IMG/VR virus record: IMGVR_UViG_3300035395_000183
Strand: one strand, 5' to 3'
Origin: an uncultured virus (IMG/VR IMGVR_UViG_3300035395_000183)
Lineage: Duplodnaviria > Heunggongvirae > Uroviricota > Caudoviricetes
DNA length: 64,000 nucleotides
In this document: positions 2,735 through 64,000 of the stretch, piece by piece
How positions within the stretch are numbered: position 1 is the first letter of the stretch
How the letters are laid out: every line of letters starts with the position of its first letter
The notes under the pieces: generated by a model
Seen by the model: the letters and a program-made list of their open reading frames with translations, nothing else
Told to the model about the DNA's origin: nothing
The model's database searches: none
Program-made: the position numbers and the translations under genes

Positions 2735-3541
2735 ATGGAAACTAAAACAAGCATTGAAGAAAAAACATTGTTTTTTCATGGAAAATCAGCAGACGGAAGA
2801 CGTTTTACATTAGCAGCCAAATTTGTAGACGATGCTCTCTTACTTGGCATAGCTGTTTGTAGTAAAACTGACCAATTTATTAAACATGTTGGTCGCAAGA
2901 AAGCAGAGGGTCGACTCTTTTCGTATAATTTTAAAGGATGTACAATTTCATCATTGTATTCTGAAAAATTCTTTGAAGAATATGCAACAGAGCTTGGACT
3001 TGTTCAGGATTGGTTTGTAGGTAAAGAATTAAAGGTATTCATTACTGTAAGTCATAAAATTGAAGCCATGACATTTAAAGAAATTAAAACTTTGTTTAAC
3101 TTTCTTTACTAATGGATTACTTCTCATGGATAAATATAAATTATTCTTGGGGAAGTAAAAACAATAATCAGAAGCCTAAAGATCCGAATTCAAATTCAGC
3201 TTTACGGGGCTATGAACGAAGACTTGCTCAGCTTTTGGTACGGGAACAAACTCCAAGAGTAGTAGCAGAAATTAAAAAGTTGCATCAAAAAATTGAGGCA
3301 CAAAAAGAAAAAATACGAAAAAGAAATGAGAAAATACATAGTTCTTAAAAATTGGGACACAAATCAATACTACACTCATCGTTATCAGCGTTTTTGGTCT
3401 AAAGACATTGAAGCAGCTTATAAGTTTAACGAAGATGAGGAAGATGAAATTGAACGAATTCTACAAGAATATGAAGATCAGTTTGAACATGTATCTTTCT
3501 TAGTTCGTGAAACCATTTATCAATTAGACAAACATGACTAA
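2735..3541 (+). CDS. three small hypothetical proteins (2735-3112, 3112-3348, ~3326-3541)
   Basis: Closely packed ORFs with TAATG-type coupling. Confidence 0.6.
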
Positions 3542-3876
3542 AAAACTGCTAGGAAATTATACAAAACGTTTCTGTAAAGAACATGGTTCCTATTATGTTG
3601 TAGAAGGAAAGTCATTCCAATGTCCTAAATGTAAACAAGTAGAAAATGACAAAACAACGCGATCCAAACAGCAAACGCTCACAACGTAGAGCAAACAGAA
3701 ACTTTACAGCATCACGTCCTGAACGTAGAGCTGCTTCACGATTAGCATATGCAATGGGTGGTTATAATCCAAGCGATGTTAGTTGTACAAAACCCGGTGC
3801 TGTAAAGCATTGGTAATAATGCTTGCAGTTCTTAGCCTTTGGGTCTGCAGATAAAATATTAAAGCTCAAGGCAAAT

Positions 3877-3961
3877 TGAGGATTATTCCGTAAGTGGTAG
3901 CGGGCTTGACTGTAAATCAAGCGTCATTGTGACTCGGGTGGTTCGACTCCATCATCCTCAA
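3877..3961 (+). tRNA. tRNA-Tyr (anticodon GTA)
   Basis: Acceptor TGAGGAT/ATCCTCA, CTTGA-CTGTAAA-TCAAG, long variable arm, GGTTCGA T-loop. Confidence 0.9.
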
Positions 3962-3981
3962 CAAAACTAAATTAGACAAAT

Positions 3982-4377
3982 ATGTTTGAAAATGCAATAA
4001 ATTGAAAGAAACAAGGAGATATAGGCATGTGTTATGCGATAGCCTATTATTCCAAAATGGGATGAACAATATCCATTCCTATAACAGATTCACAAGATTA
4101 TGATTTAATAGTAGATACAGGTTCTTCATTACTTAAAGTTCAGGTCAAAACAACTAGTCAGATAGCACCAAGTGGTGCTTCAGTAGTTGCTTTAAGAACA
4201 AATGGAGGAAATAAAAGTGGCAGCACTAGTAAAAACTTTGATGAAAATGAAAGTGATTTGTTATTTGTTATGACTAATCAAGCGGAGTTCTTCTCTATTC
4301 CAAGAAAAGAGATTACAGCAGTCAGTTCAATTACTTTAAGCGAAAAATATTTGCCTTATAAAGTTACTTTATTATAA
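3982..4377 (+). CDS. PD-(D/E)XK homing endonuclease, I-Ssp6803I-like (TGA=Trp)
   Basis: Absent from the ORF track. MFENAIN*KKQGDIGMCYAIAYYSKMG*TISIPITDSQDYDLIVD..KVQVKTTS; TGA at 4003 and 4063; YDLIVD/VQVKT motif. Confidence 0.8.
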
Positions 4378-4422
4378 ATCCGTTACATTGAAACACTGTA
4401 GGTTCGAATTCTACCGGCGGTA
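4375..4422 (+). pseudogene. orphan 3' half of a type II tRNA (Leu- or Tyr-like)
   Basis: TAAATCCGT, long variable region, GTAGG-TTCGAAT-TCTAC T-arm, CGGCGGT-A; no matching 5' half found. Confidence 0.7.
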
Positions 4423-4428
4423 CTACAT

Positions 4429-4489
4429 GGAGTCTAACCTTGGGTTATTGGTTCGCGACCAAGAGAGGTTCGAATCCTCTCAGACTCCC
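4429..4489 (+). ncRNA. minimal tRNA-like element
   Basis: Perfect acceptor GGAGTCT/AGACTCC, T-arm GAGAGG-TTCGAAT-CCTCTC, mini D hairpin AACC-TTG-GGTT, arm TTGG-TTCGCGA-CCAA. Confidence 0.6.
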
Positions 4490-4616
4490 TAATTAATTCC
4501 ACTACGATATACGAACAAACATCATTAATCTGGTCGTTGAGGTCAAAATGTCAATTTAATAATTTAACAGCGGGATGATGCCCAAGTTAAAGCGGAATTA
4601 ATTTTTAATAAATGTT

Positions 4617-4898
4617 ATGAAAATCAAATTAAAAAACCTATTCTTAGGATTAAAAGAACAACTACCCTGGCGGAGAGCTTTTAGAAATTTTTTCATTACA
4701 GGCAATGCTTGGGGAATGTTTTATTTAAGTTCTCATCAACGTACCGATATTCAGAAAACAAAAGTAATGTACAACACTAAAGCTTCAGCATTAAAAGCTG
4801 CAGAAGCTATGAAAAAGAAACAAAATACGCATTTTAGTGTATATAAATGTATCTTTTGTGATGGATATCATCTTGGTAGAAACAGAGATAACAAATAA
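4617..4898 (+). CDS. hypothetical protein with C-terminal CxxC..H zinc-binding-like motif
   Basis: VYKCIFCDGYHLG. Confidence 0.6.
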   Translation: MKIKLKNLFLGLKEQLPWRRAFRNFFITGNAWGMFYLSSHQRTDIQKTKVMYNTKASALKAAEAMKKKQNTHFSVYKCIFCDGYHLGRNRDNK

Positions 4899-5377
4899 AG
4901 AAATACTGGCTATAAACATTACTTACTTCTAACTTGTCTGTAACACAAATCTTAGTAGTTTAATTTCCAGTTAACTTTTAAACAAACAATTATGGATTTA
5001 AAAAATCTTATAAAGGCTAATGAAATCCAATGGAATCTAAAAGAAATGTATGTGGATCGTTTATTACGTTGGTATCCCGATTACTTAATATTTAGATCTG
5101 CTCCACACCCTGAATATTTTGTATTTAGGTTAAAATCAGAAGAATGGTCAGAAGATCATTCTAATGATATATATATTCACTACACACAATTGTGTGATAT
5201 AACTATGTAATAAGAAGCTCTTCTAGCCTATAGCGGTGGAAGTAAAACTAAATAGATATCAGTAACGATCGAAACTGTTAATCTGCGGTCATATGTTGGC
5301 TTTGGTAATGTGTTGCACTCACAAGAAATTATCCACGTTTCTATTAATAAGTTAGCATCTATTAAGTAGAAACAATC

Positions 5378-5449
5378 GGTTCCCTAGTTCAGAGGCTAGA
5401 ATACTAGATTTGTAATCTTGAGACTACGGTTCGAGTCCGTGGGGAACCT
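5378..5449 (+). tRNA. tRNA-Thr (anticodon TGT), atypical acceptor
   Basis: Acceptor GGTTCCC/GGGAACC, anticodon loop TTTGTAA, T-arm TACGG-TTCGAGT-CCGTG. Confidence 0.75.
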
Positions 5450-5588
5450 CAAACAAATAAATTAAATAAAATCAAATGGAACTGAAATATGATGAAGCAC
5501 GAGATAAACCAGGATGTAATGTAACGATTTCTCCTGGATGTTTAGTAATTATAACAATAATCCTGTTACTTATAACATTACTTTAATT

Positions 5589-5984
5589 ATGACTTTACAA
5601 GAAAAAATTCAAGCAGACTTAACTGCAATTCCTATTAGAACAGAAAAAGAAACAAGAGAATTATTAAAAACTCTATTAGCTGAAATTAAACTTAAGAAAG
5701 GTAATACTCCATCTGATGATGAAGTGTTAGCTGTTGTTCGTAAGTTTAAAGAAAATGCTATTGAGTGTAATAATTTAACAGAAGTTCCTATTCTTGATGC
5801 ATACTTGCCAAAAATGTTATCAAGTAAAGAAATCTTTGATATTGTCAGTGGTATTATTGTATTAAATAATTTTACTACAACCAAAGATTTAGGGCAGATA
5901 ATGGCAAAACTTAAAGAACGTGCAGACTTTAATCAAATTGATAAGAAGTTTGCAAATACGGTAGCAAAAGATTTATTAACATAA
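5589..5984 (+). CDS. GatB/YqeY domain protein
   Basis: MTLQEKIQADL..LLAEIK..SDDEVLAVVRK..ILDAYLPKMLS..KDLGQIM matches the YqeY pattern. Confidence 0.75.
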   Translation: MTLQEKIQADLTAIPIRTEKETRELLKTLLAEIKLKKGNTPSDDEVLAVVRKFKENAIECNNLTEVPILDAYLPKMLSSKEIFDIVSGIIVLNNFTTTKDLGQIMAKLKERADFNQIDKKFANTVAKDLLT

Positions 5985-5990
5985 TAAGAT

Positions 5991-6017
5991 GCCTGATTGG
6001 TGGAATTGGTAGACACG
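5991..6017 (+). pseudogene. 5' fragment of a disrupted tRNA-Leu
   Basis: GCCTGAT-TG-GTGGAATTGGTAGACACG, a Leu-type D-arm; acceptor strand can pair with ATTGGGT at 6881-6887. Confidence 0.75.
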
Positions 6018-6020
6018 TAT

Positions 6021-6102
6021 GCTCTCGTGGCGTAATTGGTAGCCGTGTTAGTTTTAGGAACTAATGTCGAAAGACGTGCCGGTTCGATTCCGGCCGAGAG
6101 TA
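6021..6102 (+). tRNA. tRNA-Leu (anticodon TAG)
   Basis: GCTCTCG/CGAGAGT-A, TTAGT-TTTAGGA-ACTAA, variable arm GTC-GAAA-GAC. Confidence 0.9.
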
Positions 6103-6113
6103 CAACTTAATTA

Positions 6114-6551
6114 ATGAATATGAGAAATGACATCCTGGAAAGGAAAGAAGAGATTCTCCAATGAATTGCGGAGAATGAAACTAATGCCGAAATGGCAAGA
6201 AGATTGGAATGTAAAGTAGATACTTTAAAAGGATACTACAAAAAATGAGGAATTGAATATGGTGGTAATCAAGGAGCGAAGGGTAAAAAATCCAATCCTA
6301 AACGAAAAACTGCCGAAGAATTATCTCAGAATCCTATAACAAACTCTCATAGATTACGCTTAAGAATTCTTGAGGATGGAGTTAGAGAACACAGATGTGA
6401 ACAATGTGAAAATACTGAATGAATGGGAGAACCTATTCCTTTAGAATTACATCATATAGATGGTAATCATAATAACAATGATTTATCTAATATACAGTTA
6501 TTGTGTCCTAATTGTCATGCTCAAACAGACAATTTTTCAAACAAAAAATAA
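6114..6551 (+). CDS. HNH homing endonuclease (TGA=Trp)
   Basis: Absent from the ORF track. CEQCENTE*MGEPIPLELHHIDGNHNNNDLSNIQLLCPNCHAQT; TGA at 6162, 6246 and 6420, the last at the family's EW.G.PIPLELHH position. Confidence 0.9.
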
Positions 6552-6555
6552 AAAG

Positions 6556-6843
6556 ATGAAAAAACTAATTATAATACTTATGATGTTTTTTGCTTTCACA
6601 ACTTTGAAAGCTCAAAGTACAGTAGACACTGCTCAATGTAAATATGCAGAAATCAATAATTTACAAGGTATGCCTAATGTTGTAATAACATGGGCAGAAG
6701 GAGTTCAAAATACTCTTTTAAAACAAAAAACAATGTTAGATGCCTTGAATTTTATGTCTTTAAAAGGTTGGGAATTTGTATCATCATATGATACTAGATT
6801 TTCACAAGATATATTACATCATTGGATTATCAGACGTAAATAG
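6556..6843 (+). CDS. small secreted protein (signal peptide; DUF4177-like LN...GWEFVS motif)
   Basis: MKKLIIILMMFFAFTTLKAQ signal peptide; its TAG stop coincides with the anticodon of the tRNA remnant. Confidence 0.6.
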   Translation: MKKLIIILMMFFAFTTLKAQSTVDTAQCKYAEINNLQGMPNVVITWAEGVQNTLLKQKTMLDALNFMSLKGWEFVSSYDTRFSQDILHHWIIRRK

Positions 6844-6888
6844 GATCAAGTGCCGAAAGGTGTGTAGGTTCGAGTCCTACATTGGGTA
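6841..6888 (+). pseudogene. 3' fragment of disrupted tRNA-Leu(TAG)
   Basis: TAG-GA-TCAAG, variable arm GCC-GAAA-GGT, GTAGG-TTCGAGT-CCTAC, ATTGGGT-A. Confidence 0.8.
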
Positions 6889-7061
6889 CAAACATTAAAT
6901 AAATAAATTATGTTAAATAGAATAATACAAATACCTCTTTTACTTCTTGCGTTTATAATTCTAATAAGTGTAATAATTCCAATATTTTATTGGTTATTTA
7001 CTGGAGAGGATCCTGCGGATAAGTTTTGTGATGTTGTTGAACAAATCTTAGATATTGAAAT

Positions 7062-7400
7062 ATGGTAGATTTTCAACGATTACAAGCCCATTTAGACAAT
7101 GGCGAAATAGAGTATGTTATGTGCGCTGCTAATTGGATTGATGATGGAAAACATTATACTCATAAACCATTTAATATAAACACAGGAATTGTATTTAGTG
7201 GATGGAGACATGGTAGTATTTTTGAACAATCACAAATTGGATATCCATTTTATATGTATGGTGATAAAACAATACAAGGTTTTTTAACTACAAAGAATCG
7301 CTTTCTTAATAGAGAAGATGCTTTGGAATTAGTGAAAAGAATAGGACAATTAACTAAACCTTTAATTGGAGGAACATTAACAAGCGAGGATTTATGGTAA
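7062..7400 (+). CDS. conserved hypothetical phage protein
   Basis: CAANW..G.RH..QGFLTTKNRFLNREDA..LTSEDLW pattern. Confidence 0.65.
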   Translation: MVDFQRLQAHLDNGEIEYVMCAANWIDDGKHYTHKPFNINTGIVFSGWRHGSIFEQSQIGYPFYMYGDKTIQGFLTTKNRFLNREDALELVKRIGQLTKPLIGGTLTSEDLW

Positions 7401-7536
7401 CATTAATTTTAATCCTTTTTATCATAGTTTTTATTGAACATAGATTCAGTCCAAGATTTGATTACACACTTGAAAATTGGATTATTCTATGGTATGGTCC
7501 ACCTTCAAATAGACAATATATTAAACTAATAAAACT

Positions 7537-7878
7537 ATGAAAACACTTTTATGGCTAGATGATAGTCGAGATCCTTTTACATCTGATTGGTTAATTTTTA
7601 GTCCAATTAAACGACCCTTTCAAACTATATGGGTACAAAATTATGAGGATTTTTGTGATTGGTTAAGAACTAACGGCATTCCAGATGCAGTTTGTTTTGA
7701 TCATGATTTAGGCACAGAAACAACAGGATATGATGCTGCAAAGTTTCTTTGTGCTCAATGTGAGTTGTTAAATGTAGCAGTACCTCTGTATAGTATGCAA
7801 TCAGCAAATACCGTTGGTAGAGATAATATTAGGAGCTATATTGAAAATTTTAAACGATTTTCAGATATAGTTTATTAA
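7537..7878 (+). CDS. cyclic-phosphate-processing receiver-like domain protein
   Basis: LWLDDSRDP..VCFDHDLG..GYD..SAN.VG motif. Confidence 0.7.
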   Translation: MKTLLWLDDSRDPFTSDWLIFSPIKRPFQTIWVQNYEDFCDWLRTNGIPDAVCFDHDLGTETTGYDAAKFLCAQCELLNVAVPLYSMQSANTVGRDNIRSYIENFKRFSDIVY

Positions 7879-7883
7879 AATAA

Positions 7884-7957
7884 GCAGTAGTAGCTCAGTT
7901 GATTAGAGTGCTAGCCTTCCAAGCTGGATGTCGTGGGTTTGAACCCCACCTACTGCT
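7884..7957 (+). tRNA. tRNA-Gly (anticodon TCC)
   Basis: GCAGTAG/CTACTGC-T, CTAGC-CTTCCAA-GCTGG. Confidence 0.9.
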
Positions 7958-7959
7958 CT

Positions 7960-8033
7960 GTGTATGATCCCGAACTGGTCAAGGGGTTGGTTTGTGGTGC
8001 CAATATTAGAGGGTTCGAGTCCCTTCATACACC
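7960..8033 (+). tRNA. tRNA-His (anticodon GTG)
   Basis: GTGTATG/CATACAC-C73, TTGGT-TTGTGGT-GCCAA. Confidence 0.85.
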
Positions 8034-8082
8034 CAATTATTAAATAGTCGATATTATGAATGTATAAATTCATAGATAAAAA

Positions 8083-8169
8083 GGGTGGGTTGCTTTAGAG
8101 GCCGAAAAGTCCAGACTGTTAATCTGGTGAGTGAAAGCTCCATCGTAGGTTCGAATCCTACCCTGCCCT
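8083..8169 (+). tRNA. tRNA-Asn (anticodon GTT) with long variable arm
   Basis: GGGTGGG/CCTGCCC, CCAGA-CTGTTAA-TCTGG, variable arm GAG-TGAAAG-CTC. Confidence 0.8.
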
Positions 8170-8268
8170 CAAACATTAGTTTCCGTCAGTCCTTGGAATT
8201 TCAGTGCATAACTAAACGGAGTTAAATAAGAAGAATTAGGGCACATTACTTCTAACTAATGTTTAAAT

Positions 8269-8343
8269 TGCCCAGTGGTGTAATTGGTTAACACGTCTGG
8301 TTTTGAGCCAGAAGATGTCTAGGTTCGAGTCCTAGTTGGGCGA
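8269..8343 (+). tRNA. tRNA-Gln (anticodon TTG)
   Basis: TGCCCAG/TTGGGCG, TCTGG-TTTTGAG-CCAGA. Confidence 0.9.
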
Positions 8344-8346
8344 CAT

Positions 8347-8431
8347 GCTTGGGTGGCGGAATTGGTAGACGCGACGGACTTAAAATCCGTTTCTCATTGT
8401 GAGAGTGTGGGTTCGACTCCCATCCCGAGTA
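8347..8431 (+). tRNA. tRNA-Leu (anticodon TAA)
   Basis: GCTTGGG/CCCGAGT-A, ACGGA-CTTAAAA-TCCGT, long variable arm. Confidence 0.9.
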
Positions 8432-8439
8432 CAAGCAAT

Positions 8440-8470
8440 AGGAGAATCCAGTAATGGGTTCTCCTTTTTT
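8440..8470 (+). terminator. intrinsic terminator closing the tRNA cluster
   Basis: AGGAGAATCC-AGTAAT-GGGTTCTCCT followed by a T run. Confidence 0.8.
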
Positions 8471-8489
8471 ATTTTTTAATACTTAATAA

Positions 8490-9921
8490 ATGACAAAAAA
8501 AGAATTAATTCAATTAGCAAAACATCTATCTTTTAATTTAGAGTTAGATAGATTTAGTGATAGTGGTAGTCAAGGCCAAGAACATGTTAAAAGTCCTTTT
8601 ATACGATTCAGACATGAACTTGCGCCTAATCATGTTACCGATTACGCCGTTATTATTTATGAAGAGGAGTTATCTCCTGAAAGTAATGTTTATAATATAT
8701 TTGAACATGCATTGCGCACTGTAGGTATGTATCAAATGAAAGAATCATTTGGTAGATTGATGGGAATGTAACACTTTAAAAACTTAAAATCATGTCAGTA
8801 AGAACAACAGCCGATGAAAAATTAGATAGTGCAAGGGAACATCTTAAACAAGCTTACAAAGATTTATTAGTCTTTGCAGATGAAGATACTTGGGGTTATT
8901 CAGAATTTACAAATAGTTTTATTGAAAACATTATTGAAGTAACTTTTGAACTTCGGAAATTAAGAATTAAATTAACATAATGATTATTATTAAAGACTTA
9001 GATTTTGAAATGGAGCAGGTTAAATCTACTCCATTTTTTAATCTAAAATTGCCGACTATTGTCAATGAGGGAAAAGAAAATGAACGCATTGATATGAAGA
9101 TTGATGGGTATGGGATGCCTTTTGAAATATGTATACAAAAGATAGTAAGTTTTAAGTTATCAAAATTAACAGGTACATTTAAAGCAGTTGAATATATGGA
9201 TATGTATACAGCTGAAGTAGATAAACTTATTGATTTAGTAACATATATTTATAAAGCTCCTAAAACAGATAAAAAAGAAACTTCTGATGAAGATTCTGAT
9301 GAAGAAATTGAAGATGAAAATACTGAAATGGAGGAATAATGGAAATAATCGAAAAAGATTTTACTATTACAAATAATGGAGATTGTTGGACTCTTCATTG
9401 TTTAAAATCAAAGAAAGAATTAAAAGAAAATGCTAAAGAATCATATAGAATTGGTGGATATTTTACCAATATTTATAATGCATTACATGCAGCATTACAG
9501 TGGCGACAAGATAAAAAATATCCATTTTCTGAACCAATACCTGAATTTAAACGTGCTCTTAAAGATTATAGAACTGCAACTAATAAATTAAAATTTGCTT
9601 CAACAATGTTTTATGTTCCTATTTACTTATTTAAAAAAGCTGTTTTCGATGAAGATAGACGATTTCTCAATAGCAATTGATTCTGGAATCCTTATTGTTA
9701 CTTCTAAAAAGAATGTAACAGCAGACAATCTAAAAGAAATGAAAGATATAGTAGAACAAAGTATGGGTCGAAGATATTCATGTGGAATATATAGAGATGC
9801 TTTAGGATACTATGATGGATATGATTTCCAAAATGATATCTCGGTTTATTGCGGAACCTTAAATGAAAAAGCCGCAATTGAAAAAATTAAAAATTATAAA
9901 TTAATAAAAAATTTAGCATGA
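8490..9921 (+). CDS. run of five small hypothetical proteins (8490-8771, 8792-8980, 8980-9339, 9339-9680, ~9649-9921)
   Basis: Tightly packed, translationally coupled ORFs. Confidence 0.6.
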
Positions 9922-24523: not shown

Positions 24524-27005
24524 ATGGCAGACTTAATTGGAGTCGTAGGCAATGCAGGAAGTGGCAAATCTACTTCAATGAGGAATCTAAATCCAAAGAC
24601 AACTTTTATTATAAATGTAGCGGGTAAACCATTACCATTTAAAGGTTGGAAAAAGAGTTATACTCCTTTAACGCAAGACCCTACATCTAAAAAGTTTGTG
24701 GGCAATCTGTACAATACCGCAAATACTGCGCAGATTCTACAAATTTTAAAAATGATTGACAAACAAAGACCAGAGATCAAAGTAGTAGTTATTGAGGATG
24801 CTCAATATATTATGGCTTGAAAGGATTGAAATGAATTTTAGTGAATCCATGTTACAGTATAAGAATGTATGCGGAATTTATAAAATTATTTGCAATGATG
24901 CAGATTTTTATTTAGGAAGTTCTAAAAACATTCAACAAAGATTTTACAAACATAGAAATGAACTTCGAAAAGGAGTTCATAAAAATGAACATTTACAAAA
25001 TGCTTATAATAAGTATGGAGAAAAATGTTTTAATTTATTAATTGTAGAAATCTGTAATATAGATGAACAATATTTAAGAGAACAATATTATATTGATTTA
25101 TTACAACCCGTTTATAATAAAGAACGAGATGTTTTAACTCATATTCCAACTGAAGAAACTAAAATTAAATTATCAGAAGCTAATAAAAAATATTATGCAG
25201 ACCCTGAGAATTTAAAGAAACGATATAAAACTATATATCGTTTTAATAGTTTATTTGAAATTATTAATACTTATGAAGGAATTAAACCAAACATTGAAGC
25301 GTGAGCTGTAGAATTTGGAATAAAACCTGGAGGTGCTGATAAGGGAATTAACAGAGCTTTAGCAAGTGGTAAATTATATAAAGGTTCTTATTGATCATAC
25401 GATCAAAATTTCAAAGGCCCTACAGTTAGTAATAACTGTTAGCAAATTTGGTGAATTCAGGGAAACTCCGAAATGAGCAATTCAAAGGACAATCCTGAGC
25501 CAAGCCCTGTAAAGGGAAGGTGCAACGACTATCTCGAAAGAGAGTACACTCAAGTGAGTGGAAGCGCCAAACATCTTAATTAAGATGATGATATAGTCTA
25601 ATCTGTATAGGAATATACAGCAGCTAAGTAGCGGGTAGTGTTTAACGAGCACTATTGAATATAAATGTTTGAAGCTATGGAAAGATCCTCTGAAAAAGGG
25701 TAATAGAACATGCCCAAACCAATCTAATTGACGGGGATATCCTTAGAGTCTTTTTAACCAAGCAATGATAGTAATATACATTGTGGCTTTCACTAATTAT
25801 GAAAGGTATGGTAAAATAAAAAAGAATTGGACAATCCGCAGCTAAGCTTCCAAAATAAAATTGGAAGAAAGTTCAACGACTATCTCCGTGAAGGGGAGTA
25901 CATTAAAGCTATTTATAACTTTTTTGGAAATGGTTGGAATTTTTATAAAAATTATTCGCTATCTTTGTAAATTATAATTTAACAAAATAGCATATGGAAA
26001 AAATTAAAGGAAAAAGCAAAATGCCGGAATATACACAATGGAAATCTATGAAATCTAGATGTTATTCACCCTCGGCAACAAAAGGAAAGTATAAAGAGAA
26101 TAATATTCAAGTCAGCAATGATTGGAAAAATTCTTTTGAAACTTTTTATTCAGATATGGGAAATTGTCCTATAGGATTTACTTTAGAAAGACTTGATAAT
26201 CTCAAGGATTATTCTAAAGAAAATTGTATATGGGCAAATAGAGAAGACCAAAGTAAAAATCGGGAAGATTTTAACGATATTGTTACTTATAAGGATAAAA
26301 CTATGGTATTAAAAGACTGGGCTAAAGAATTGAATATTAAATATACAACACTTTATCAAAGAATTTATAGAAGTGGTTTATCTTTTGAAGAAGCTATACA
26401 ACAAGATCCATTTAAAAAATTAATATCTATTGGAGAAGAATCTAAAACTCTTAAACAATGGTGTGAATTCTATAATATGGAATTTGAATTAGTTAACAAT
26501 AGAATCTTTAAACATAAGTGGGAACCTATTGAAGCTTTAACTATTCCAAAAGGAATAAGAAGAACTAAAAATTAAGATATAGTCTGAACTTTATGGAAAC
26601 ATAAAGAGTTGCGTTTATACGCAGATTAACACAATTGATGAGAAATTTACTCAAATGGCAAATAACTTCTATTCAGTATTGAAAGAATCTATGGGCATGA
26701 GAAATGACTTAAAGGTATGTGTATTAGCACATTCCGAAAACATAGGGGATGCACTCAACCCTTCCTATAAATTAAAAACATTAGGAAAAATGATTGACAA
26801 CATGATTACTGTTGAGGGTTTATTTACTTATGTATTATTTACTACACTTATCAATGAACTTGAAGGTGGAATATCACATAAATTTATAACTCAATCTGAT
26901 GGTACAACTACTGCTAAAACTCCAATGGGATGTTTTGATAGTATGTTGATAGATAATGATTTACAATATGTAGTCGAGAAAATTGACGAATATAATGAAG
27001 GCTAA
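24524..27005 (+). CDS. AAA ATPase (Sak4/AAA_24-like), spliced from exons 24524-24817, 25668-25701 and 26638-27005
   Basis: GNAGSGKSTS; joining the exons gives EDAQYIMA|FEAMERSSEKG(Y)|EKFTQMANNF..TVEGLFTYVL..TAKTPMGCF, a continuous family-like sequence. Confidence 0.9.
24818..25667 (+). mobile_element. group I intron 1 with GIY-YIG ORF in the P1 loop
   Basis: 5' exon ends in U and intron ends in G; guide sequence TTTCAAAGGCC near 25409-25419 pairs with both exons; core GAATTCAGGGAA, AATCCTGAGCCAAG, GCAACGACTATC, GATATAGTCTAA. Confidence 0.9.
24831..25442 (+). CDS. intron-encoded GIY-YIG endonuclease (TGA=Trp)
   Basis: CGIYKI..FYLGSS..RFYKH..HLQNAYNKYG; reads through TGA at 25302 and 25392 (YKGSY*SY) to TAG. 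Confidence 0.85.
25960..25967 (+). promoter_or_regulatory. Bacteroidota-type -7 promoter element inside intron 2
   Basis: TATCTTTG about 26 nt upstream of the endonuclease ATG. Confidence 0.55.
25994..26575 (+). CDS. intron-encoded HNH-like homing endonuclease
   Basis: YTQWKSMKSRCY..FYSDMG..TLERLDNLKDYSKENCIWA plus two LK.W repeats; all six Trp codons are TGG. Confidence 0.85.
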   Translation: MEKIKGKSKMPEYTQWKSMKSRCYSPSATKGKYKENNIQVSNDWKNSFETFYSDMGNCPIGFTLERLDNLKDYSKENCIWANREDQSKNREDFNDIVTYKDKTMVLKDWAKELNIKYTTLYQRIYRSGLSFEEAIQQDPFKKLISIGEESKTLKQWCEFYNMEFELVNNRIFKHKWEPIEALTIPKGIRRTKN

Positions 27006-50800: not shown

Positions 50801-51511
50801 ATGGAAAATACATTCGCATCATTTAAACCTATAACATTAAATCCTAATCCTTCTAAAGAAGAAATTCAGCAAGAATACTTTAATAGTAATAATGATTACT
50901 TAGATAAAGATATTAGCAGTATATTAGGAATAAGTTTATCTCCTGCAACTTCTGCAACTCCTGCTCCTCAAGAAATTAAATCTGAAAAGAAATATAATAT
51001 TAGGGAGTTATTAGATGAAAATCCTCCGGAAACATTAACTGCTTCTGTTAAGTCTAAAAATACTTCTATAAAGCCTAAAAATAAAAAAGAATTTCTTCAA
51101 ATATATTCTCCAATGGCAGAAGAAGCATCTAAAAAACTAAATATTCCTAAAGACTATTTATTAGCTCAAATTGCTTTAGAAACCGGATGAGGTGAACATA
51201 CTCCTGGTAATAATGTTGGAGGTATAAAAGCATTTGCTTCCTGAAAAGGACCTAAACAAATCCTTAAAACTAAAGAGAAAGGAAAAAATGGTTTAGAAGA
51301 TAGAATGGAACCATTTAGAATGTATAATTCAATAGAAGAAGGTTTTGCAGATTATGTTAATTTATTATCAACTAGTAATAAATTTAAAAGTATCGTGGGA
51401 ATTTCAGATCCATATCAAGCTGCTCAAATTATTGGAAAAAGTGGATATGCCACTGGAGATAACTATGGTACAATAATACAAAATCTAATAAAAGAAGTTC
51501 AACAAATCTAA
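50801..51511 (+). CDS. GH73 (FlgJ-like) peptidoglycan hydrolase (TGA=Trp)
   Basis: Two track ORFs join: LAQIALETG*GE..NNVGGIKAFAS*KG..FRMYNSIEEGFADY..GYATGDNY; TGA at 51188 and 51242 fall at conserved Trp positions. Confidence 0.9.
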
Positions 51512-51573: not shown

Positions 51574-54500
51574 TTACTTCTTAAACACTTCAGCAGCACC
51601 AATATTTCTTGTCATAACATCCATAATTTCTCTATCTCCAGAGATAGAATCTCATATATCTGTTGACATTTTTTTACTTCAAGATAAGAAGACAGGTTCT
51701 GTATTAACAGCTCCTAACGTACTTTGTCATACATTATATTCATTTAAAACTTTATTATTAACTCTTCCTGTTAAATTTAATAATGAACCTGATAAACCGT
51801 CAGTACCTTTTTCTGCAATTAATTGATCTATTATAGCTTTCATAATACCAAGCATTATAAAAATTAATCCAGCATCAGCTAAAGCAAATAAAGCACGTCT
51901 ATTTCTTTCTTCACTATTTTTAATATGAGTAAAATCCAATTTTACAACATCACGTAATGTTCCTACTACAGAATACCAAAGTCCTTCATATGGAGAACCT
52001 TCTCATTTCATTACTGGATCTCCTGTATCTTGATCAGTAGTTTCAGTTGTAATTGTTCCATCATCATGTTCAACTGTTTTAAAGTATTGTAATACTTTTT
52101 TACCATCAACAATTAAATAGTCTTGTACAACTTTACCCATAGGACTTTCATCTCTATGTTGTTCATCAATAGGTTTAGCAAATCACATTTTCATTTTTCC
52201 AGGCCAAAATTGCATAAATTGTAATCAGGTCATTCCTCATCACGTATTATTAGCTTGAGATTGAGCATCTTTATCATAATAACCATATGCCATATCAGTA
52301 AAGGATTTCATACTTGTTCTCTCCGTTTCTGAATATGCTTTATTAATTATATCTTTTTCTGAAAAAGTATCTTTACCATATTCTTTATTTAGCATATTTT
52401 GTAATAACAAATATCTTTGACGTTGTTGATTATATTTAACATCATTAGTTGATGCGATAAATTCATTTCCTTTTTGATATTTGTCTCGATTTTTAAAATA
52501 ATATTCAAAACGTTTATCTTTTGTTGGATCATAAGTAAATACTCCATCAACTAATGAATGAGCTTCATAACTTCCATCATGAATCATTTTAGCAAGAAAA
52601 ATCGATAATCTATTATAATAATCAGGAATTGTATTACACATATATAAATATCGACCTGTTCCTCTAAGCATACCTCGTCTATCAGATTGAGATTTTTTTG
52701 CAATAGTATTAACGTCCATATTGGCAAATCTATAATATCTATTTAAATCATCAATTAAATTAAATTCAGATGAAAACTTATTATCAATAGTCATTAACTT
52801 GTGATAAGCTTTAGTTAAATCGCCAATTGTAAATTGATCTTTTCCATAAATTTGAGTAGCAGCTAAAGATATTCCTTTAAATACTCCAATAGTCATTTCT
52901 TTTACTAAAGATGTTATTTTGAAACCTAACATAGCAGGAGTTGAAATTGCTTTAACTAAACCGGCTACTTTAGCAAAATCTTTAAACTCTTCATCAATAA
53001 CTGGTTCATCAAAAATAGATAATTTCATTTGATTAGTAATATACTCTAATTGATTGGAGATATCTTCATTATTTTTACCGGCTGATAATTTCATCCATCA
53101 TATAAAAGAATTAATGATTGGAAGTTTTTTATCATATTCATTTTTTCTAATTTTACTAAAAGCAATTCGATGTGCAATAGTATCTAAATTTCATTCAAAA
53201 TAATTTATTGAATGTTTTTCAATACCTTTAGCTACATACTCAGGAGTTTGTCTAGCATATACATCATACATTTCATAAAATCCTAAATTTTGAGCCTCCA
53301 AAGCTGCCAAATCATCTTTAGTTAATTCACGATTATCAATATAATCATTAAATTCATGAAAATATGATGATAATTTTTCTTTTCAAAGTTTTCCTGGAGT
53401 AGTAAAGATATCACCAAATCTAGTAACTTCTTCTCTTCTAATTAATGGCATTCTAAAATATTCTTCACTTTCTAAAGCATCTTTTATTTTATTATTAGTC
53501 ATTAATGATTTTATATTTTTACTATCTAACTTTGCAATTTCTGAATCTGGAATTTGTAATTTATGTGCATTTATAATTAACAATAAATTTTGTAGGTATT
53601 CTCGCTCATGATCCTCTAATGCATTAAGATTATCTAACACATAAGGATTTTTAGTTCTAAATTCTTTAGATACTTTTTGATTTATATCATGTAATCATAA
53701 ATTTTCATGCTTTGTTTGAGTTTCACCAATAATATTACGAGAAAATCCACTGAAATTAATTTCTTTATAGAATTTTTTAGTATTTCAAGCAATTTGTTCT
53801 GATGCCTTCAACATTTTTTCTCCAATATGTTGATTTGTCATAGCCATAATTTTATTAATACTATGTAAATCTTTTGATGCTACTCAATCTGGAGTAGTTC
53901 ATAACAATCCCTGAGTAATTCCTTGAATACGTTGACGTTCTTTATTATATTTTTCCTGATGATCACTAAATAATACGGCAATTAAACTTTTGAAATCAGA
54001 AAAACCTAAACTATATTTAGACATTCGTTGATAATCATCAGCAAATTCCATTTGACCTTTTGAAGCAATAACTACTTGTAAAAGTGCAATTAGTACTTCT
54101 TTTGGATCATTGAAATCAACTACTCCTTTCATTGTTTTATCTCGATATCCAACAAATCCAGGGGAATTAAACAACTCTCTTTGAACTTCAATTAAAGCTT
54201 CTACATCTAATAAATCTAAATTTGTATCACTAATATTTTTAAAAACTCTTTCAACATCTTCTTTATTTGTTCCATTAAAATTTCTTAAATTAGTAGTTAA
54301 GTTATATAAAGCAATATCCTCAATTGAAGCTACATTTTTTTCACTTAATTTTAATTCTTTTCTTAATGATTCTTTTAAAGACATTTGTTCTTTAAATTCA
54401 ACAAACTTACTAAAACAATTTTTAGGATAAGTTTGCATATTTAATGGATTATAAATTATAATTTGTGCTATTTTATCATTTTTAACAGAAACATCTGATG

Positions 54501-56238
54501 TAGGAATTAATATATCTTTAAATTCATTTAAAAATAAAAAAGTTTTTAAAAATTCTAAATCTCCATATGTTTTTCCATCAATATGACTTGATGCATCAAA
54601 TTGATTTATAGATAAACTAATAACATTAATGTTTCCATTTAATTTATTTTTTAAAACAACTAAACCAAAAGCAATTGCTTCAGGAATTTCAGTTACTACA
54701 TCTCAATCATCATTTAAATATTCGGTTAATAAATGATTGATAGTTAAATCCTTTTGTAAATCATATGAATTTGTTTTAACTGGAATTTTACTTTTAATAG
54801 CTGATATAATAGCATCCTTTAAAATAGAGACATTTCGATTAGTTTGAGTTTTTACATGGTCAACATATAATTTAATTTTTTTTCTAAACTCTTCTTCTGT
54901 ATCCGATTCAATATAACCTTTTTTTAATCCTGAAATTCCCTCAAAGTTATTTCATTTAATCCATTTCTTGTCTTTTTCATAACGTTTTCTTGCATTTTCT
55001 ACAATTTTTTCTACATCAAAATCTTCAAGTCCTGTTTCTATTTTATATTGATTTCCAAGTAAATCAGATAATTGCCCTTTTAATTTATATTCTCTATCTG
55101 GATTATAATCTGCAATTACTTTTCTAGGAATGAGTTTATTTGCTTTTTGAGTTATTGCTCCAGTTGAATTTAAACCACTATTATTTTCAGTTCCTCTATC
55201 TACAATCTTTTCAACACTTATACTACCTGGATTTCCAAGAGTTTCTAAATGTATAGGAATTACATATAATCGAGTTTGATCTATATTAATATGTAATCCT
55301 AATAATTGTCTATATAAAGCTAATTGTCAATCTAAAGTTAACTTTTTAGCTGTATCTCATTTCTGATATTTAGTTTTAGAAATTTTAATTTCAAATATAT
55401 GTGCATTTCCTGATGTATCAACAGCTACTAAGTCAAGTTTTCCTTTTAATCCTCTTTTTCCACTTGAAATCTTTGAATCCTCACCTCAAATATCAATTGG
55501 TGTTTTAAATTTATCTCCATCAGTCATTATCATAATTTCACTAATAAGATACCCTTGTCCTTGAACCTGAGAAATAACATTTGTTACTATTTCATTAATC
55601 TTTTTAGTTCAATCATTTGTAGAATAGTTACCAAGTAATTCTGAGTTTGCTGGATCAGATAAAAATCGATCAATAAGTTTACTATATTCTTTATCTTGTA
55701 TTTTTAAAGAAATAATATTATGTAAAAATGTACCAAAATCCTTTGTCTTTTCTTCGATTTCTCGAATATTATAATATTCATTTAAAAGAGTTATTAATCT
55801 ACTTAAAGGAATATTTTTTAATTCATCAAAAGTTGAAATGTATTCTAGTAATTTTTCATCATATTTTAATCCGGATATGTTTTCTGTTGGAGAAATATTT
55901 TGAACTCGGTCTAAGTTTTCTTTTATAAAATAGTAAACTCTATTTTTTTCAATAATTTCTGGAGCTAAAATTCCTTTTTCTTTTGTTTCAATTCCTAAAG
56001 AATTATATAAACCTGGATGTGGAGTTGTAATAAACTCTGTTACGATTTCATTGTCAGAGGCAGTATAATCTGAAACTTTAACTACATTTAAAATCTTATT
56101 AATTGTACTTTTTTGAATCTCTTCTTTACTATAAATTTTATCATTTTTTAATTGATAGTTGGCTTCAAAAAATTTAGTAATTAAAGTTTGTATGTCGTTT
56201 ATCTTTTCTCCATCTTTGTAATAATAGCAATTTGTCAT
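51574..56238 (-). CDS. giant virion cargo/RNAP-associated protein with RecB-type PD-(D/E)XK domain, 1554 aa (TGA=Trp)
   Basis: Track fragments ending at 55609, 53899, 53383, 52240 and 51727 share one frame and all stop at TGA; motifs FGTFLH..GKLDLVAVD..IFEIK..*QLALY; TAA stop at 51574-51576. Confidence 0.85.
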
Positions 56239-56239
56239 T

Positions 56240-59200: not shown

Positions 59201-59692
59201 ATTTTTAGATTTAATTCTATCTTTTTCTTCTTTTAATGTTGTTGTTCCTAAAACTCCGACAACACCTAAGCCTTTAAAATAATTTAAATCTCTTTTCTTT
59301 AATAACTTTGCTTTTAAACTTTTAACCTTCTCATTTACTTCGCCTTTCTTTGTTCCCTCTCAAATATAATTTTTAATAGCTTGTTCAATATTTGCATACG
59401 TGCCCGATTCTATTATTAATTTATTAACAGTTTGATATAGATTATCAATTTCAGAACTTTTTTTAATTATATTTTTAAGAACTGTTTGATGTATTTTAAA
59501 AGAGGTTTCTTCAGTAATTAAATCTGCCAATTTGGCTAATATTTTATCTTTTTTCTCAACGTTTTCTTCTGCATTATAGCTATTGAAAAGCTCATCTATT
59601 TTTGGATTTTGTCCATCAAGATTATTAAAACTAGTGGAGAGTTCTATGACATCTCCACTAGGTAATTTTAACAAATATTTACATTTTGCCAT
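56240..59692 (-). CDS. giant virion cargo protein with C-terminal zincin-like HExxH motif, 1150 aa (TGA=Trp)
   Basis: Fragments ending at 59360, 57509 and 56276 share one frame and stop at TGA; VIHEFLH motif; TAA stop at 56240-56242. Confidence 0.85.
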
Positions 59693-59695
59693 AAT

Positions 59696-62600: not shown

Positions 62601-64000
62601 GATACATAAGCATCATTTGATTTCGTTTTAAGGTATGCTACATTTTTCATTTCCATAAACGATTGCATAGATTGTGATGGAATACGAGCAGCTACAAATT
62701 CATGAGATTTTTCTCAAGAGGCATACATTTTTTTACCTAATTGAGAAATAATACTATTTTTATTTAACAAAAATCATTTATCCTTTATAGATTTATCTCC
62801 AATAGAATAACCAGAAAACTTTGAAAACTCCTGTAAAGTTAAACTATTAAAACTAATTCGTCTAGATTTAAATGATGGGGCAGCTACTTTTTCAGTTTTT
62901 CTTTCTGCTATTTTTGCAGCTGTTTCTGTATCCTCTACTTCTTCAAACAAATCAAATTTGTTATTCATTAAAGGAATAAAACTTCTAATATTTCCTTTAA
63001 ATGATTTAATTAAATCTTTTAAATTTTGATCAAAATCTTTAACTTTATTAGTATGAGTTTCTTTTCCTAATTTAAATGATGCAACTGCTTTAATATAAAT
63101 AACTTCTTTTCCATTTTCCATCCTTATACTTACATTTTTAGTATCAGGGATTGTATATAGAATCTCTCCTTTTTGATTTCTTCTAACAAAACGTTGATTA
63201 ACTCCATCCTCTTCCATTGGATGTTCTAGAGTAATATTTAAACTATAATCATTTCCAGGAAGATTATCAGTGTATTTAACATATATTGGAGAATCATAAT
63301 TGTTTAAATATAATTTAATATCAGCAACTGTACTATCATCATGAAAATCTTTTTCTAATAATTTCTCAAAATATGCAGAACCTTGCTGTTTAATTTCATA
63401 CATTGAATCCTCAAAGTTACGATTAAATTTAGATTGATAAATATCTCCTAAAATTAATTCAGCTGCATTAAATTTATAATTTGTAATTAATGAACTATTA
63501 GAATCATCATATAATTGTTGCACATCAGAAAATATTGCATTGAAATTATCAGTTTTAAATAAACCTACTTTATTATTAAATTTGGTTGTAATATCAACAG
63601 GATTCATTACTCTATTAGTTTCTAATAACTCTAAGTTTCTTTGAGTCCATTTATTTAATAAAGTGTTTAATAATTTAGCTGTTTCTTCTAATTTAGTAGT
63701 TAAACTAATAAATAAATCAAATCCTGTAAAATCTTTAAAGAAATTAGATAAAATAATATAATCTGTAGATGTTTGATCAATTACTTTTCTATTTTTTAAA
63801 TCATCAATAATTTCATTTAATTTATATCTTAAACGTACAGAATCAAAGTCAAATACATTTTTTTGAATTCCATTAACTACATATGTAATTTCAGAAGGTT
63901 TTAAATCTCTTGGTTTATTTATAATTTTAGTTATTGGTTCACTAGTTTTAGTTCCTTTATATTTATAATATAATCCAGGATTAAATAATGTTTTAATCAT
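59696..64000 (-). CDS. crAss-type virion DNA-dependent RNA polymerase, catalytic subunit, 5'-truncated by the window edge (TGA=Trp)
   Basis: Fragments ending at 62774, 61199, 60665, 60170 and 59762 share one frame; FVAARIPSQSMQSFM..VSI*QI*LQGSDFDIDK (DFDID at 62558-62572), VGKDDVGIAANG, SAATDNAKELL. Confidence 0.9.

What the first reader, a model, noticed from the sequence alone, without database searches (positions are those of the whole stretch)
5991..6888. Endonuclease cassette that splits a tRNA gene and supplies a replacement isoacceptor
Seen, in order: 5' part of a tRNA-Leu (5991-6017), a complete but divergent tRNA-Leu(UAG), an HNH gene, a secreted-protein gene, then the 3' part of a tRNA-Leu beginning exactly at the TAG anticodon (6841-6888). 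The outer acceptor strands GCCTGAT/ATTGGGT can pair (with G-U wobbles), and only about 7 nt (5' anticodon stem and loop start) are missing. Inference: an ~820-bp intron-less element inserted at the anticodon arm of the resident tRNA-Leu(UAG), restored function with its own cleavage-resistant copy, and carries a cargo gene. Free-standing endonucleases in phage tRNA regions are known (T4 SegB), but I do not know this destroy-and-replace layout with cargo as a described element.
Basis: partly seen in the sequence, partly recalled or inferred. Interest (0 to 1): 0.8.

Follow-up and report, generated by a model that had tools for sequence, protein, structure and literature searches.

The report
Nuclease-plus-spare-tRNA cassette splitting a tRNA gene
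A selfish DNA-cutting-enzyme gene that travels with its own leucine tRNA gene sits inside this phage's older leucine tRNA gene and has broken it, and a close relative in nature still has the unbroken gene.

Summary
Window 5991-6017 and 6841-6888 are the two ends of one tRNA-Leu(UAG) gene. Between them lie a complete, different tRNA-Leu(UAG) (6021-6102), an HNH endonuclease gene read with TGA=Trp (6114-6551) and a small orphan secreted-protein gene (6556-6843).

- **Empty site found.** In run X5 a contig 95.6% identical to the upstream gene passes from 6017 straight to 6841. It carries exactly seven other letters there, CTTGATT, the predicted missing anticodon-stem strand.
- **Same layout in a relative.** A distant relative (L044, 73% neighbour protein) has the same arrangement without the secreted-protein gene, so that gene is a local add-on.
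- **Family tied to tRNA-Leu.** Of 80 viral loci, 37 have an intact tRNA-Leu(UAG) just after the HNH gene and 10 just before it. In 14 the gene lies inside a group I intron at U34|A35 of tRNA-Leu(UAA). Split halves recur in several lineages.
- **No ribozyme is present.**

Best reading: an intron-less homing cassette that breaks the resident gene at the intron site and brings a spare. Cleavage specificity and tRNA function are inferred, not shown. This scan has noted the same layout on other DNA, and my searches found no paper describing it.

The parts
5991..6017 (+). 5' part (positions 1-26) of the resident, now broken, tRNA-Leu(UAG) gene
   Evidence: Sequence. Leu-tRNA profile positions 1-30, E 0.0032. 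28 of 28 nt identical to L044. Continuous with the 3' part in the X5 contig.
6018..6020 (+). 3-nt remnant of the linker between the 5' part and the inner tRNA (L044 has tRNA positions 27-33 plus a 13-nt linker here)
   Evidence: Alignment of window and L044 shows a 17-nt gap in the window.
6021..6102 (+). complete inner tRNA-Leu(UAG), the presumed working replacement
   Evidence: ARAGORN. Rfam tRNA 51.4 bits. 64 of 82 nt identical to L044's copy, with compensatory stem changes.
6114..6551 (+). HNH homing-endonuclease gene, 145 aa, N-terminal helix-turn-helix plus C-terminal HNH/zinc-finger; read with TGA=Trp (3 TGA, 0 TGG)
   Evidence: Translation. Pfam HNH and HTH. 73/53/59% identity to L044, a T5-like and a crAss-like homologue, with invariant C95 C98 H114 N126 C131 C134 H135.
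6556..6843 (+). orphan small secreted-protein gene (95 aa), lineage-specific add-on inside the insert; its stop codon TAG is the resident anticodon
   Evidence: ORF and sequence. Only one homologue, 96% identical, among 5.8 billion proteins. Absent from L044. Uses TGG three times and no TGA.
6841..6888 (+). 3' part (positions 34-73: anticodon, 3' anticodon stem, variable arm, T arm, acceptor strand, discriminator A) of the resident tRNA-Leu(UAG)
   Evidence: Sequence. Leu-tRNA profile positions 35-83, E 2.7e-7. 39 of 47 nt identical to L044. Right side of the X5 joint.

Best explanation
An 823-bp cassette (6018-6840) sits in the anticodon arm of a resident phage tRNA-Leu(UAG) gene. It consists of a complete, different tRNA-Leu(UAG), a free-standing HNH homing-endonuclease gene and, in this lineage only, an orphan secreted-protein gene.

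Proposed mechanism, with the status of each step:
1. The HNH enzyme recognises uninterrupted tRNA-Leu genes of co-infecting relatives around the anticodon loop. This is the site where its intron-borne kin are inserted. (Inferred.)
2. It cuts or nicks there. (Inferred.)
3. The break is repaired from the cassette-bearing genome. The two tRNA halves serve as exon-like homology arms. (Inferred.)
4. Nothing splices the insert out, so the resident gene is destroyed. (Shown: no ribozyme, 7 nt lost here.)
5. The cassette's own tRNA-Leu(UAG) takes over decoding. It differs at all five anticodon-stem pairs and in the D stem. (Function inferred from compensatory evolution; resistance to cleavage inferred.)
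6. The split target can no longer be cut, which makes the carrier immune. (Follows from the structure.)

The enzyme is written with TGA for Trp, like the phage's late genes. It is therefore probably made only when TGA is read as sense. (Inferred.)
For: - **Presence/absence polymorphism at the exact site.** The X5 contig (341 nt, depth 5.61) lies on 5723-6017 with 13 differences. It then joins to 6841 with the 7 letters CTTGATT, which restore a 5-bp stem with TCAAG and a 7-nt loop TTTAGGA. Window-identical contigs occur in the same run.
- **Same layout in L044.** The cassette is old there: HNH 73% aa identity, 4-fold sites 13 of 23 identical. The arms are better kept (28/28 and 39/47) than any shared working tRNA (55-79%). 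This fits arms renewed from working alleles by repeated homing.
- **A close relative lacks the cassette while a distant one has it.** That pattern indicates horizontal spread.
- **Family association.** Of 40 viral loci with any tRNA starting within 150 nt after the HNH, 37 have Leu(TAG). 10 of 80 have Leu(TAG) just before it.
- **Intron kin at the same site.** 14 of 80 carry the gene inside a group I intron at U34|A35 of tRNA-Leu(UAA).
- **Split halves in other lineages.** The break lies at profile positions 26-37 / 35-58 in L058, L059, L120 and L129 (both halves) and in at least 14 loci with one half.
- **Co-varying halves.** In L058 the acceptor and anticodon-stem halves differ in sequence from the window's but are complementary to each other.
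- **No ribozyme**.
- **Inner tRNA under structural constraint**.
- **Known precedent.** T4 SegB recognises a tRNA motif and drives inheritance of its tRNA region (PMC2330249, abstract and passages).
Against: - No cleavage or homing was tested. The target site is inferred from relatives.
- The empty-site allele rests on one short assembled contig at depth 5.6, with 37 nt on its right side, laid at an 85% threshold. It stops inside the T arm.
- The layout with the tRNA before the HNH is polyphyletic in the HNH tree.
- Some 3' pieces (L122, L103/104) could come from decay of a downstream tRNA after duplication (L119 has two intact copies), not from insertion.
- Function of the inner tRNA rests on covariation between two sequences.
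- No RNA data exist.
- No intact allele was found in IMG/VR or in 185,579 species genomes by exact search.
Confidence: 0.8

Rival explanations
1. Passive relic. The halves and the extra tRNA arose by ordinary duplication, illegitimate recombination and decay in a fast-changing tRNA array. The HNH gene is only a neighbour and plays no part in making or spreading the layout.
For: - Phage tRNA arrays here are full of debris: a 3' tRNA piece at 4378-4423, a 60-nt tRNA-like stretch at 4429-4488, and further orphan T arms in G001.
- crAss-like contigs show a series from two intact Leu(TAG) (L119), to a T-arm remnant only (L122, L103/104), to nothing (L068/70). This reads as decay after duplication.
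Against: - The HNH family is next to or inside a tRNA-Leu gene in 60 of 80 loci, across unrelated phage groups.
- Breaks cluster at the anticodon loop, the insertion site of the intron-borne kin.
- Both halves flank exactly HNH plus tRNA in 6 loci.
- The site is polymorphic between close relatives.
Confidence: 0.1
2. Working split or intron-bearing tRNA. The outer halves are still expressed and joined, by splicing or by processing plus ligation, or they serve as a tRNA-like frame for the HNH transcript. On this view they are conserved by selection on RNA.
For: - The halves are more conserved between window and L044 (28/28, 39/47) than working tRNAs (55-79%) or 4-fold sites (42 of 71).
- The T stem of the 3' half differs by two compensatory pairs.
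- In L058 the outer gene is complete apart from loop positions 32-33.
Against: - The window lacks positions 27-33, so no anticodon stem can form.
- No group I or other intron model matches, and there is no room for a ribozyme.
- Other lineages keep only one half.
- L059 and L044 have stem mismatches.
- Renewal of the arms by homing explains the conservation without any RNA function.
Confidence: 0.05
3. Degenerate intron. The resident gene once carried a group I intron with this HNH gene, as in the intron-bearing relatives. The ribozyme was later lost, and a neighbouring tRNA was drawn in.
For: The same HNH family lies in group I introns at U34|A35 of tRNA-Leu(UAA) in 14 of 80 loci. The break in L044 falls within one nucleotide of that site.
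Against: - The intron-borne HNHs form one well-supported clade (14 rows, 100/99) that excludes window, L044, L058 and L059.
- No trace of intron core sequence remains on either side of the HNH ORF.
- The model needs several extra steps to place a whole foreign tRNA between the 5' exon and the ORF.
Confidence: 0.05

Closest known systems
Intron-less homing by free-standing homing endonucleases in phage tRNA regions: T4 SegB (GIY-YIG); PMC2330249 (abstract and passages read); review PMC3984707 (passages)
   Same: - The endonuclease gene lies among phage tRNA genes.
- Its target is a tRNA gene sequence.
- The gene is present or absent between close relatives.
- It spreads together with flanking tRNA genes.
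- The ORF abuts or overlaps a tRNA, so tRNA processing may limit expression.
   Different: - SegB is GIY-YIG, lies between genes and breaks none.
- Here an HNH enzyme sits inside a tRNA gene, destroys it and brings a whole replacement gene.
- Activity is shown for SegB and not for this enzyme.
T5 tRNA-region HNH endonucleases F-TflI, F-TflII, F-TflIV (Akulenko et al. 2004; the paper was not held, and is known here only from citations in PMC2330249 and PMC5714182)
   Same: Full-length homologues (44-53% identity) lie in the tRNA regions of T5, BF23 and T5-like Salmonella phages. In SIA3lw the ORF ends inside an intact tRNA-Leu(UAG).
   Different: - Which F-Tfl enzyme, if any, corresponds to this protein could not be checked.
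- The T5-like copies examined here do not split a tRNA gene with both halves kept.
Group I intron in the anticodon loop of tRNA-Leu(UAA) (cyanobacteria and plastids; recalled) and its phage forms carrying this HNH family
   Same: - Same kind of host gene.
- Same insertion site to within one nucleotide.
- Same endonuclease family: 14 of 80 loci.
- Exon-like halves on both sides.
   Different: There is no ribozyme, so no splicing. Gene function is covered by a second gene carried in the insert instead of by RNA repair.
Integrase-borne islands and prophages that insert in tRNA genes and carry a copy of the displaced tRNA end (for example the tRNA-Leu attB of Cluster J mycobacteriophages, PMC3706429, passages)
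   Same: A mobile element lands in a tRNA gene, often in or near the anticodon loop, and makes good the damage with tRNA sequence that it brings.
   Different: - No integrase and no att repeats.
- A whole, unrelated tRNA gene is supplied, not a duplicated 3' end.
- Spread is by break repair, not site-specific recombination.

Membership tests
HNH (His-Me finger) endonuclease, Pfam PF01844 | Profile match above the curated cut-off | tested here: met
   24.3 bits against 21.4, E 3.6e-5, residues 95-137.
HNH (His-Me finger) endonuclease, Pfam PF01844 | Catalytic His/Asn/His and the two CxxC zinc pairs kept | tested here: met
   C95, C98, H114, N126, C131, C134 and H135 are invariant in the 4-sequence alignment. 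Assigning roles to these residues is from recall.
Free-standing homing endonuclease gene (intron-less homing) | Gene present in one genome and absent at the same site in a close relative | tested here: met
   X5 contig, 95.6% identical upstream, joins 6017 to 6841 with 7 other letters.
Free-standing homing endonuclease gene (intron-less homing) | Enzyme cleaves the endonuclease-less allele near the insertion site | not testable with these tools
   Needs protein and substrate. Inferred only from intron-borne kin inserted at U34|A35.
Free-standing homing endonuclease gene (intron-less homing) | Carrier allele is not a target | tested here: inconclusive
   The sequence spanning positions 26-34 no longer exists in the window. 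Whether the inner tRNA gene escapes cutting is unknown.
Free-standing homing endonuclease gene (intron-less homing) | Non-reciprocal transfer in mixed infection | not testable with these tools
   The phage is uncultured. The only indirect sign is that cassette presence disagrees with relatedness.
Group I intron | Ribozyme core detectable and room for it | tested here: not met
   No Intron_gpI match in window 3500-9000 at E<=10, nor in L044, L058 or L059 at gathering score. The insert is filled by the tRNA and the ORFs.
tRNA (inner gene 6021-6102) | Cloverleaf model match and stems kept by compensatory change | tested here: met
   Rfam 51.4 bits and ARAGORN. There are 2 double changes in the acceptor stem and 3 in the anticodon stem against L044.
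tRNA (outer gene, halves 5991-6017 and 6841-6888) | Complete cloverleaf | tested here: not met
   Positions 27-33 are absent and 823 nt are inserted. No tRNA call spans the halves.
T5 F-Tfl endonucleases | Sequence kinship with the T5 tRNA-region HNH genes | tested here: inconclusive
   46.5% identity over 98% of the query to T5 ORF070, and 44.8% to BF23 hegA. Which of these is F-TflI, II or IV could not be read.

The most novel reading that the evidence does not exclude
This is a third way for a homing endonuclease to live inside a conserved gene. It is neither an intron or intein that repairs the product, nor an intergenic free-stander. It is a 'spare-part' cassette that destroys the gene and carries a whole replacement.

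- The broken halves act as homology arms.
- They are renewed from working alleles at each homing event, which is why they are better conserved (28/28 and 39/47 nt) than the phage's working tRNAs.
- The same enzyme family has moved between the intron-borne form and the spare-tRNA form, and across phage orders: T5-like, crAss-like and this TGA-recoded phage.
Probability: 0.5. Interest if true: 0.8.

Novelty: new variant of a known kind. Interest (0 to 1): 0.68.

Why it matters
Homing endonucleases are thought to persist in conserved genes only when an intron or intein hides them, or else to sit between genes. A cassette that breaks its target and pays the cost with a spare gene would be another stable strategy.

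It would also help explain three things:
- why phage tRNA arrays hold so many duplicated and broken tRNA-Leu genes;
- how whole tRNA genes move between unrelated phages;
- why automatic annotation misses these genes (the homologues in SIA3lw and cr126_1 are unannotated).

Here both alleles, full and empty, occur in one natural sample, so the proposed homing is directly testable. The enzyme family may also offer nucleases aimed at a defined tRNA gene sequence.

Tried and rejected
- **Exact scans for the outer tRNA.** The 48-nt 3' piece, the 27-nt 5' piece and the 27-nt T-arm/acceptor piece in viral contigs gave 0 hits each. The 26-nt 5' piece in genome contigs gave 0.
- **Motif scan.** An IUPAC motif of the variable arm and T arm gave 22 hits. 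All were intact Leu tRNAs of other phages, and none had the GCCTGAT acceptor.
- **Relatives of the upstream YqeY-like protein in viral contigs:** none.
- **Relatives of the downstream protein in viral contigs.** 10 loci at 62-70% identity, with no tRNA within 4 kb. Their records hold few tRNAs and a CUA suppressor, so they do not bear on the site.
- **Best match of both outer halves to any of the 70 collected Leu tRNAs:** 43 of 75, so no intact look-alike.
- **Group I intron reading:** rejected.
- **Promoter and terminator scan of 5300-7200.** 12 promoter-like sites against 10.3 expected, and only minus-strand terminator-like sites. Not informative, and Bacteroidota-type promoters are not covered.
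- **Cargo protein.** One near-identical homologue only. Pfam gave a sub-threshold hit on the signal peptide alone.
- **HNH against solved structures:** no match at E<=0.01.
- **RNA:** no RNA holder listed.
- **Whole-contig tRNA census through L043:** record not held. The window's own assembly is not held either, so whether the phage carries a UCA suppressor tRNA stays open.
- **Akulenko 2004:** not held.
- my first translation was out of frame by one base and was redone.
- **YqeY row:** it used a wrong frame for L044 and is disregarded.
- **Literature.** Searches for a description of this layout found none. Subscription journals are mostly not in the library.

Full report
**What is in the window.** The window is AT-rich phage DNA (29.5% G+C). 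A tRNA array spans at least 3877-8432 (8 tRNAs). The array continues upstream in the nearest held record G001, which is 100% identical over 5400-7500.

At the finding the sequence reads in this order:
- the end of a YqeY-like gene (Pfam 1.2e-11);
- 5991-6017, positions 1-26 of a type II tRNA (acceptor strand, D arm);
- three bases;
- 6021-6102, a complete tRNA-Leu(UAG) (ARAGORN; Rfam 51.4 bits);
- 6114-6551, an ORF;
- 6556-6843, a second ORF;
- 6841-6888, positions 34-73 of a tRNA-Leu(UAG).

The last piece starts with the anticodon TAG, which doubles as the stop codon of the second ORF.

A profile built from 70 distinct phage Leu tRNAs places the two pieces at profile positions 1-30 (E 0.0032) and 35-83 (E 2.7e-7). 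The outer acceptor strands pair at all seven positions, three by G-U. G1-U72 is also a trait of the two working Leu tRNAs of this phage.

**The endonuclease and the genetic code.** Read with TGA as Trp, 6114-6551 gives a 145-aa protein. It has a helix-turn-helix-like N-terminus and an HNH domain above Pfam's cut-off.

It is 73% identical to the homologue in L044. It is 53% identical to an unannotated ORF of a T5-like Salmonella phage and 59% identical to one of crAss-like phage cr126_1. The zinc-binding cysteines and catalytic His/Asn/His are invariant. Two of the three TGA codons fall on invariant Trp that the other phages write as TGG.

TGA is not a defect, because the phage uses it as a sense codon:
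- Three frames of 1152-1559 codons on the minus strand are open only under that reading (37 TGA, 6 TGG).
- A glucosaminidase has TGA in its conserved Gly-Trp-Gly stretch.
- All four endonuclease genes of the window use TGA for every Trp (12 TGA, 0 TGG).
- By contrast, 58 plus-strand ORFs use 184 TGG, and 8 of them stop at TGA.

The endonuclease is therefore written like a late gene. No UCA tRNA was found in the DNA I could scan.

**A syntenic relative with the same layout.** A metagenome contig (L044) encodes the downstream protein at 73% identity. It has the same order of tRNAs: Thr, Leu(UAG), Gly, His, Asn, Gln, Leu(UAA).

At the site it has:
- the same 5' piece, 28 of 28 nt identical;
- this piece runs on through positions 27-33;
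- a 13-nt linker;
- an inner tRNA-Leu(UAG);
- the HNH gene (4 TGA);
- directly after its stop codon, the 3' piece.

There is no secreted-protein gene and no small membrane ORF. So the 7-nt loss in the window is part of a secondary 17-nt deletion, and the 'cargo' is a later addition. It is an orphan, with one 96%-identical homologue among 5.8 billion proteins. It uses TGG, unlike the HNH gene.

The two inner tRNAs are 64 of 82 nt identical. They differ by two double changes in the acceptor stem and three in the anticodon stem, all of which keep pairing. This argues that the inner tRNA works.

**The empty site.** Contigs of four public runs labelled microbial mat metagenome were laid on 5000-8000. 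Run X5 is from a different study than the likely source run.

In X5 a 341-nt contig (depth 5.61) matches 5723-6017 with 13 differences, all in the YqeY-like gene. It then continues at 6841. It skips 823 nt and carries exactly seven other letters, CTTGATT.

CTTGA is the complement of the 3' stem strand TCAAG, and TT completes a 7-nt loop TTTAGGA.

The same run also holds low-depth contigs identical to the window (records 25, 26, 29, 30), so both alleles occur in one sample.

Limits of this evidence:
- it is one short assembled contig;
- 37 nt lie on its right side;
- it ends inside the T arm;
- the threshold was 85%.

Two other joints were reported. One has 23 other letters and looks like a different Leu tRNA. 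The other (6912 to 7537) shows that the X5 relative differs downstream as well.

**The enzyme family is tied to tRNA-Leu genes.** A scan of IMG/VR with the four-protein alignment found 267 relatives, of which the best 80 were kept. ARAGORN on these 80 gave the following:
- Of 40 loci with any tRNA starting within 150 nt after the HNH match, 37 are tRNA-Leu(UAG), one is Leu(GAG) and two are Ser(UGA).
- 10 of 80 have tRNA-Leu(UAG) ending within 150 nt before it.

In the T5-like and crAss-like records the ORF's stop lies inside the intact tRNA.

In 14 of the 80 the gene lies inside a group I intron of a tRNA-Leu(UAA) gene. The exon ends sit at profile positions 35 and 36, that is U34|A35 (read from sequence; tabulated). 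Rfam's intron model passed its cut-off only in L126, where the ORF does not interrupt the intron.

Leu-profile hits were counted when they did not overlap a called tRNA, had E<=0.1 and lay within 700 nt. By that count, both halves flank HNH plus an intact Leu(UAG) in:
- the window, L044 and L059;
- L058, where the 5' half was accepted by eye (profile E 1.5);
- L120 and L129, in mirror order (half, HNH, tRNA, half).

One half remains in L132, L122, L103, L104, L064, L065, L069, L087, L136, L121, L097, L080, L082 and L084.

In L058 the outer halves have a different acceptor sequence from the window's but are complementary to each other. The HNH stop codon there is the anticodon TAG.

**What the tree says.** 75 of 84 HNH rows were used; 9 shorter than 120 aa were dropped, and L103/104 are frame-shifted long branches.
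- The intron-borne genes form one clade (14 rows, 100/99).
- Window and L044 pair (99/94).
- The layout with the tRNA before the HNH appears in at least three places, mixed with the tRNA-after layout.

So layouts have changed repeatedly. Some 3' remnants in crAss-like contigs may be decay products of a second downstream copy (L119 has two intact copies) and not insertion scars. That route cannot explain a 5' half placed upstream of a foreign inner tRNA, as in the window, L044, L058 and L059.

**How it most likely works.**

Shown:
- an insertion/absence polymorphism exactly in the anticodon arm;
- no ribozyme;
- a second tRNA under structural constraint;
- a family-wide tie to tRNA-Leu and to the intron site.

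Inferred:
- the enzyme recognises intact tRNA-Leu genes near the anticodon loop and breaks them;
- repair copies the cassette, using the halves as arms;
- the inner gene escapes, because all five anticodon-stem pairs and the D stem differ;
- the inner gene takes over decoding.

One result fits repeated homing better than a single old insertion. Between window and L044 the cassette is old: HNH 4-fold sites are 13 of 23 identical, and three genes together give 42 of 71. Working tRNAs are 55-79% identical. Yet the halves are 28/28 and 39/47 identical, with two compensatory T-stem pairs.

Arms that are partly re-derived from working alleles at each transfer would look like this. Selection on the halves as RNA is the alternative, but the window's missing stem strand argues against it.

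**Comparison with what is known.** Intron-less homing and SegB's action on tRNA genes are established (PMC2330249, abstract and passages; PMC3984707, passages).

A 2026 paper reports that SegB is widely linked to tRNAs without preference for isotype and can amplify tRNA genes (PMC13096335, abstract and section 10).

HNH genes in the T5 tRNA region are known as F-TflI, II and IV. That paper was not held, so I know it only from citations.

I found no paper describing an endonuclease-plus-tRNA cassette that splits a tRNA gene. The library lacks most subscription journals.

This scan's own earlier notes report the same layout in at least six other genomes, and the intron form in two. I read them after my own analysis, and they agree with it. 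They are unchecked notes, not independent evidence.

**Verdict.** It is a new variant of intron-less homing. The case here is unusually strong because the empty allele was found.

Noticed in passing
window 3877-4427: A second case of the same kind with another enzyme family. An intact tRNA-Tyr (3877-3962) is followed by a PD-(D/E)XK endonuclease gene at 3982-4377 (Pfam PDDEXK_5 6.8e-21; PDB 2OST 9.3e-9; 2 TGA, 0 TGG). Its stop codon TAA runs straight into the 3' part of a type II tRNA (4378-4423, Leu profile positions 39-83, E 0.011). The only viral relative found (L160, 45%) lies between tRNA-Arg and tRNA-Tyr and overlaps the Tyr gene's start.
   Followed up: partly
window 51574-64000 (minus strand), 1954-2610, 24831-25442, 50801-51511: The phage reads TGA as Trp in part of its genes. 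Three giant minus-strand frames are open only under that reading (37 TGA, 6 TGG). A glucosaminidase and all four homing-endonuclease genes use it (12 TGA, 0 TGG). Plus-strand ORFs use 184 TGG, and 8 of 58 stop at TGA. No UCA tRNA was seen in the DNA scanned.
   Followed up: partly
window 4429-4488: A 60-nt tRNA-like stretch with a 7-bp acceptor stem and a good T arm but no D arm or standard anticodon arm (weak tRNA-Sec model hit, 24.8 bits). It may be a tRNA with an internal deletion.
   Followed up: no
L021 1316-1593, L028/L032 (records G002, G003): Distant relatives that carry a CUA suppressor tRNA have tRNA genes of 85-99 nt with 26-35 extra bases at the anticodon arm. ARAGORN misses them; Rfam scores them at 28.8-41.4 bits.
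   Followed up: no
window 7062-7400 and 7537-7878: The protein of 7062-7400 has no Pfam family. Its homologues lie next to tRNA genes in several unrelated phage contigs (L050-L053). Its neighbour 7537-7878 is a cyclic-phosphate-processing receiver domain (cREC_REC, 7.5e-21). This may be a link to tRNA or RNA repair.
   Followed up: no
L125-L128, L131, L133: The HNH gene lies convergent to a minus-strand tRNA that carries an ORF-less group I intron (Rfam Intron_gpI 55.4 bits in L126). This is a further layout of the same family.
   Followed up: partly
L098, L099, L107, L111, L117, L120: HNH genes of this family in other phages carry 2-3 in-frame TAG codons. The endonuclease genes seem to adopt whichever stop codon their phage has recoded.
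   Followed up: no
L056 1504-1965 and L057 1477-1932: The full-length HNH homologues of Salmonella phage SIA3lw and crAss-like phage cr126_1 are not annotated in the public records. Both ORFs end inside the following tRNA-Leu(UAG) gene.
   Followed up: yes
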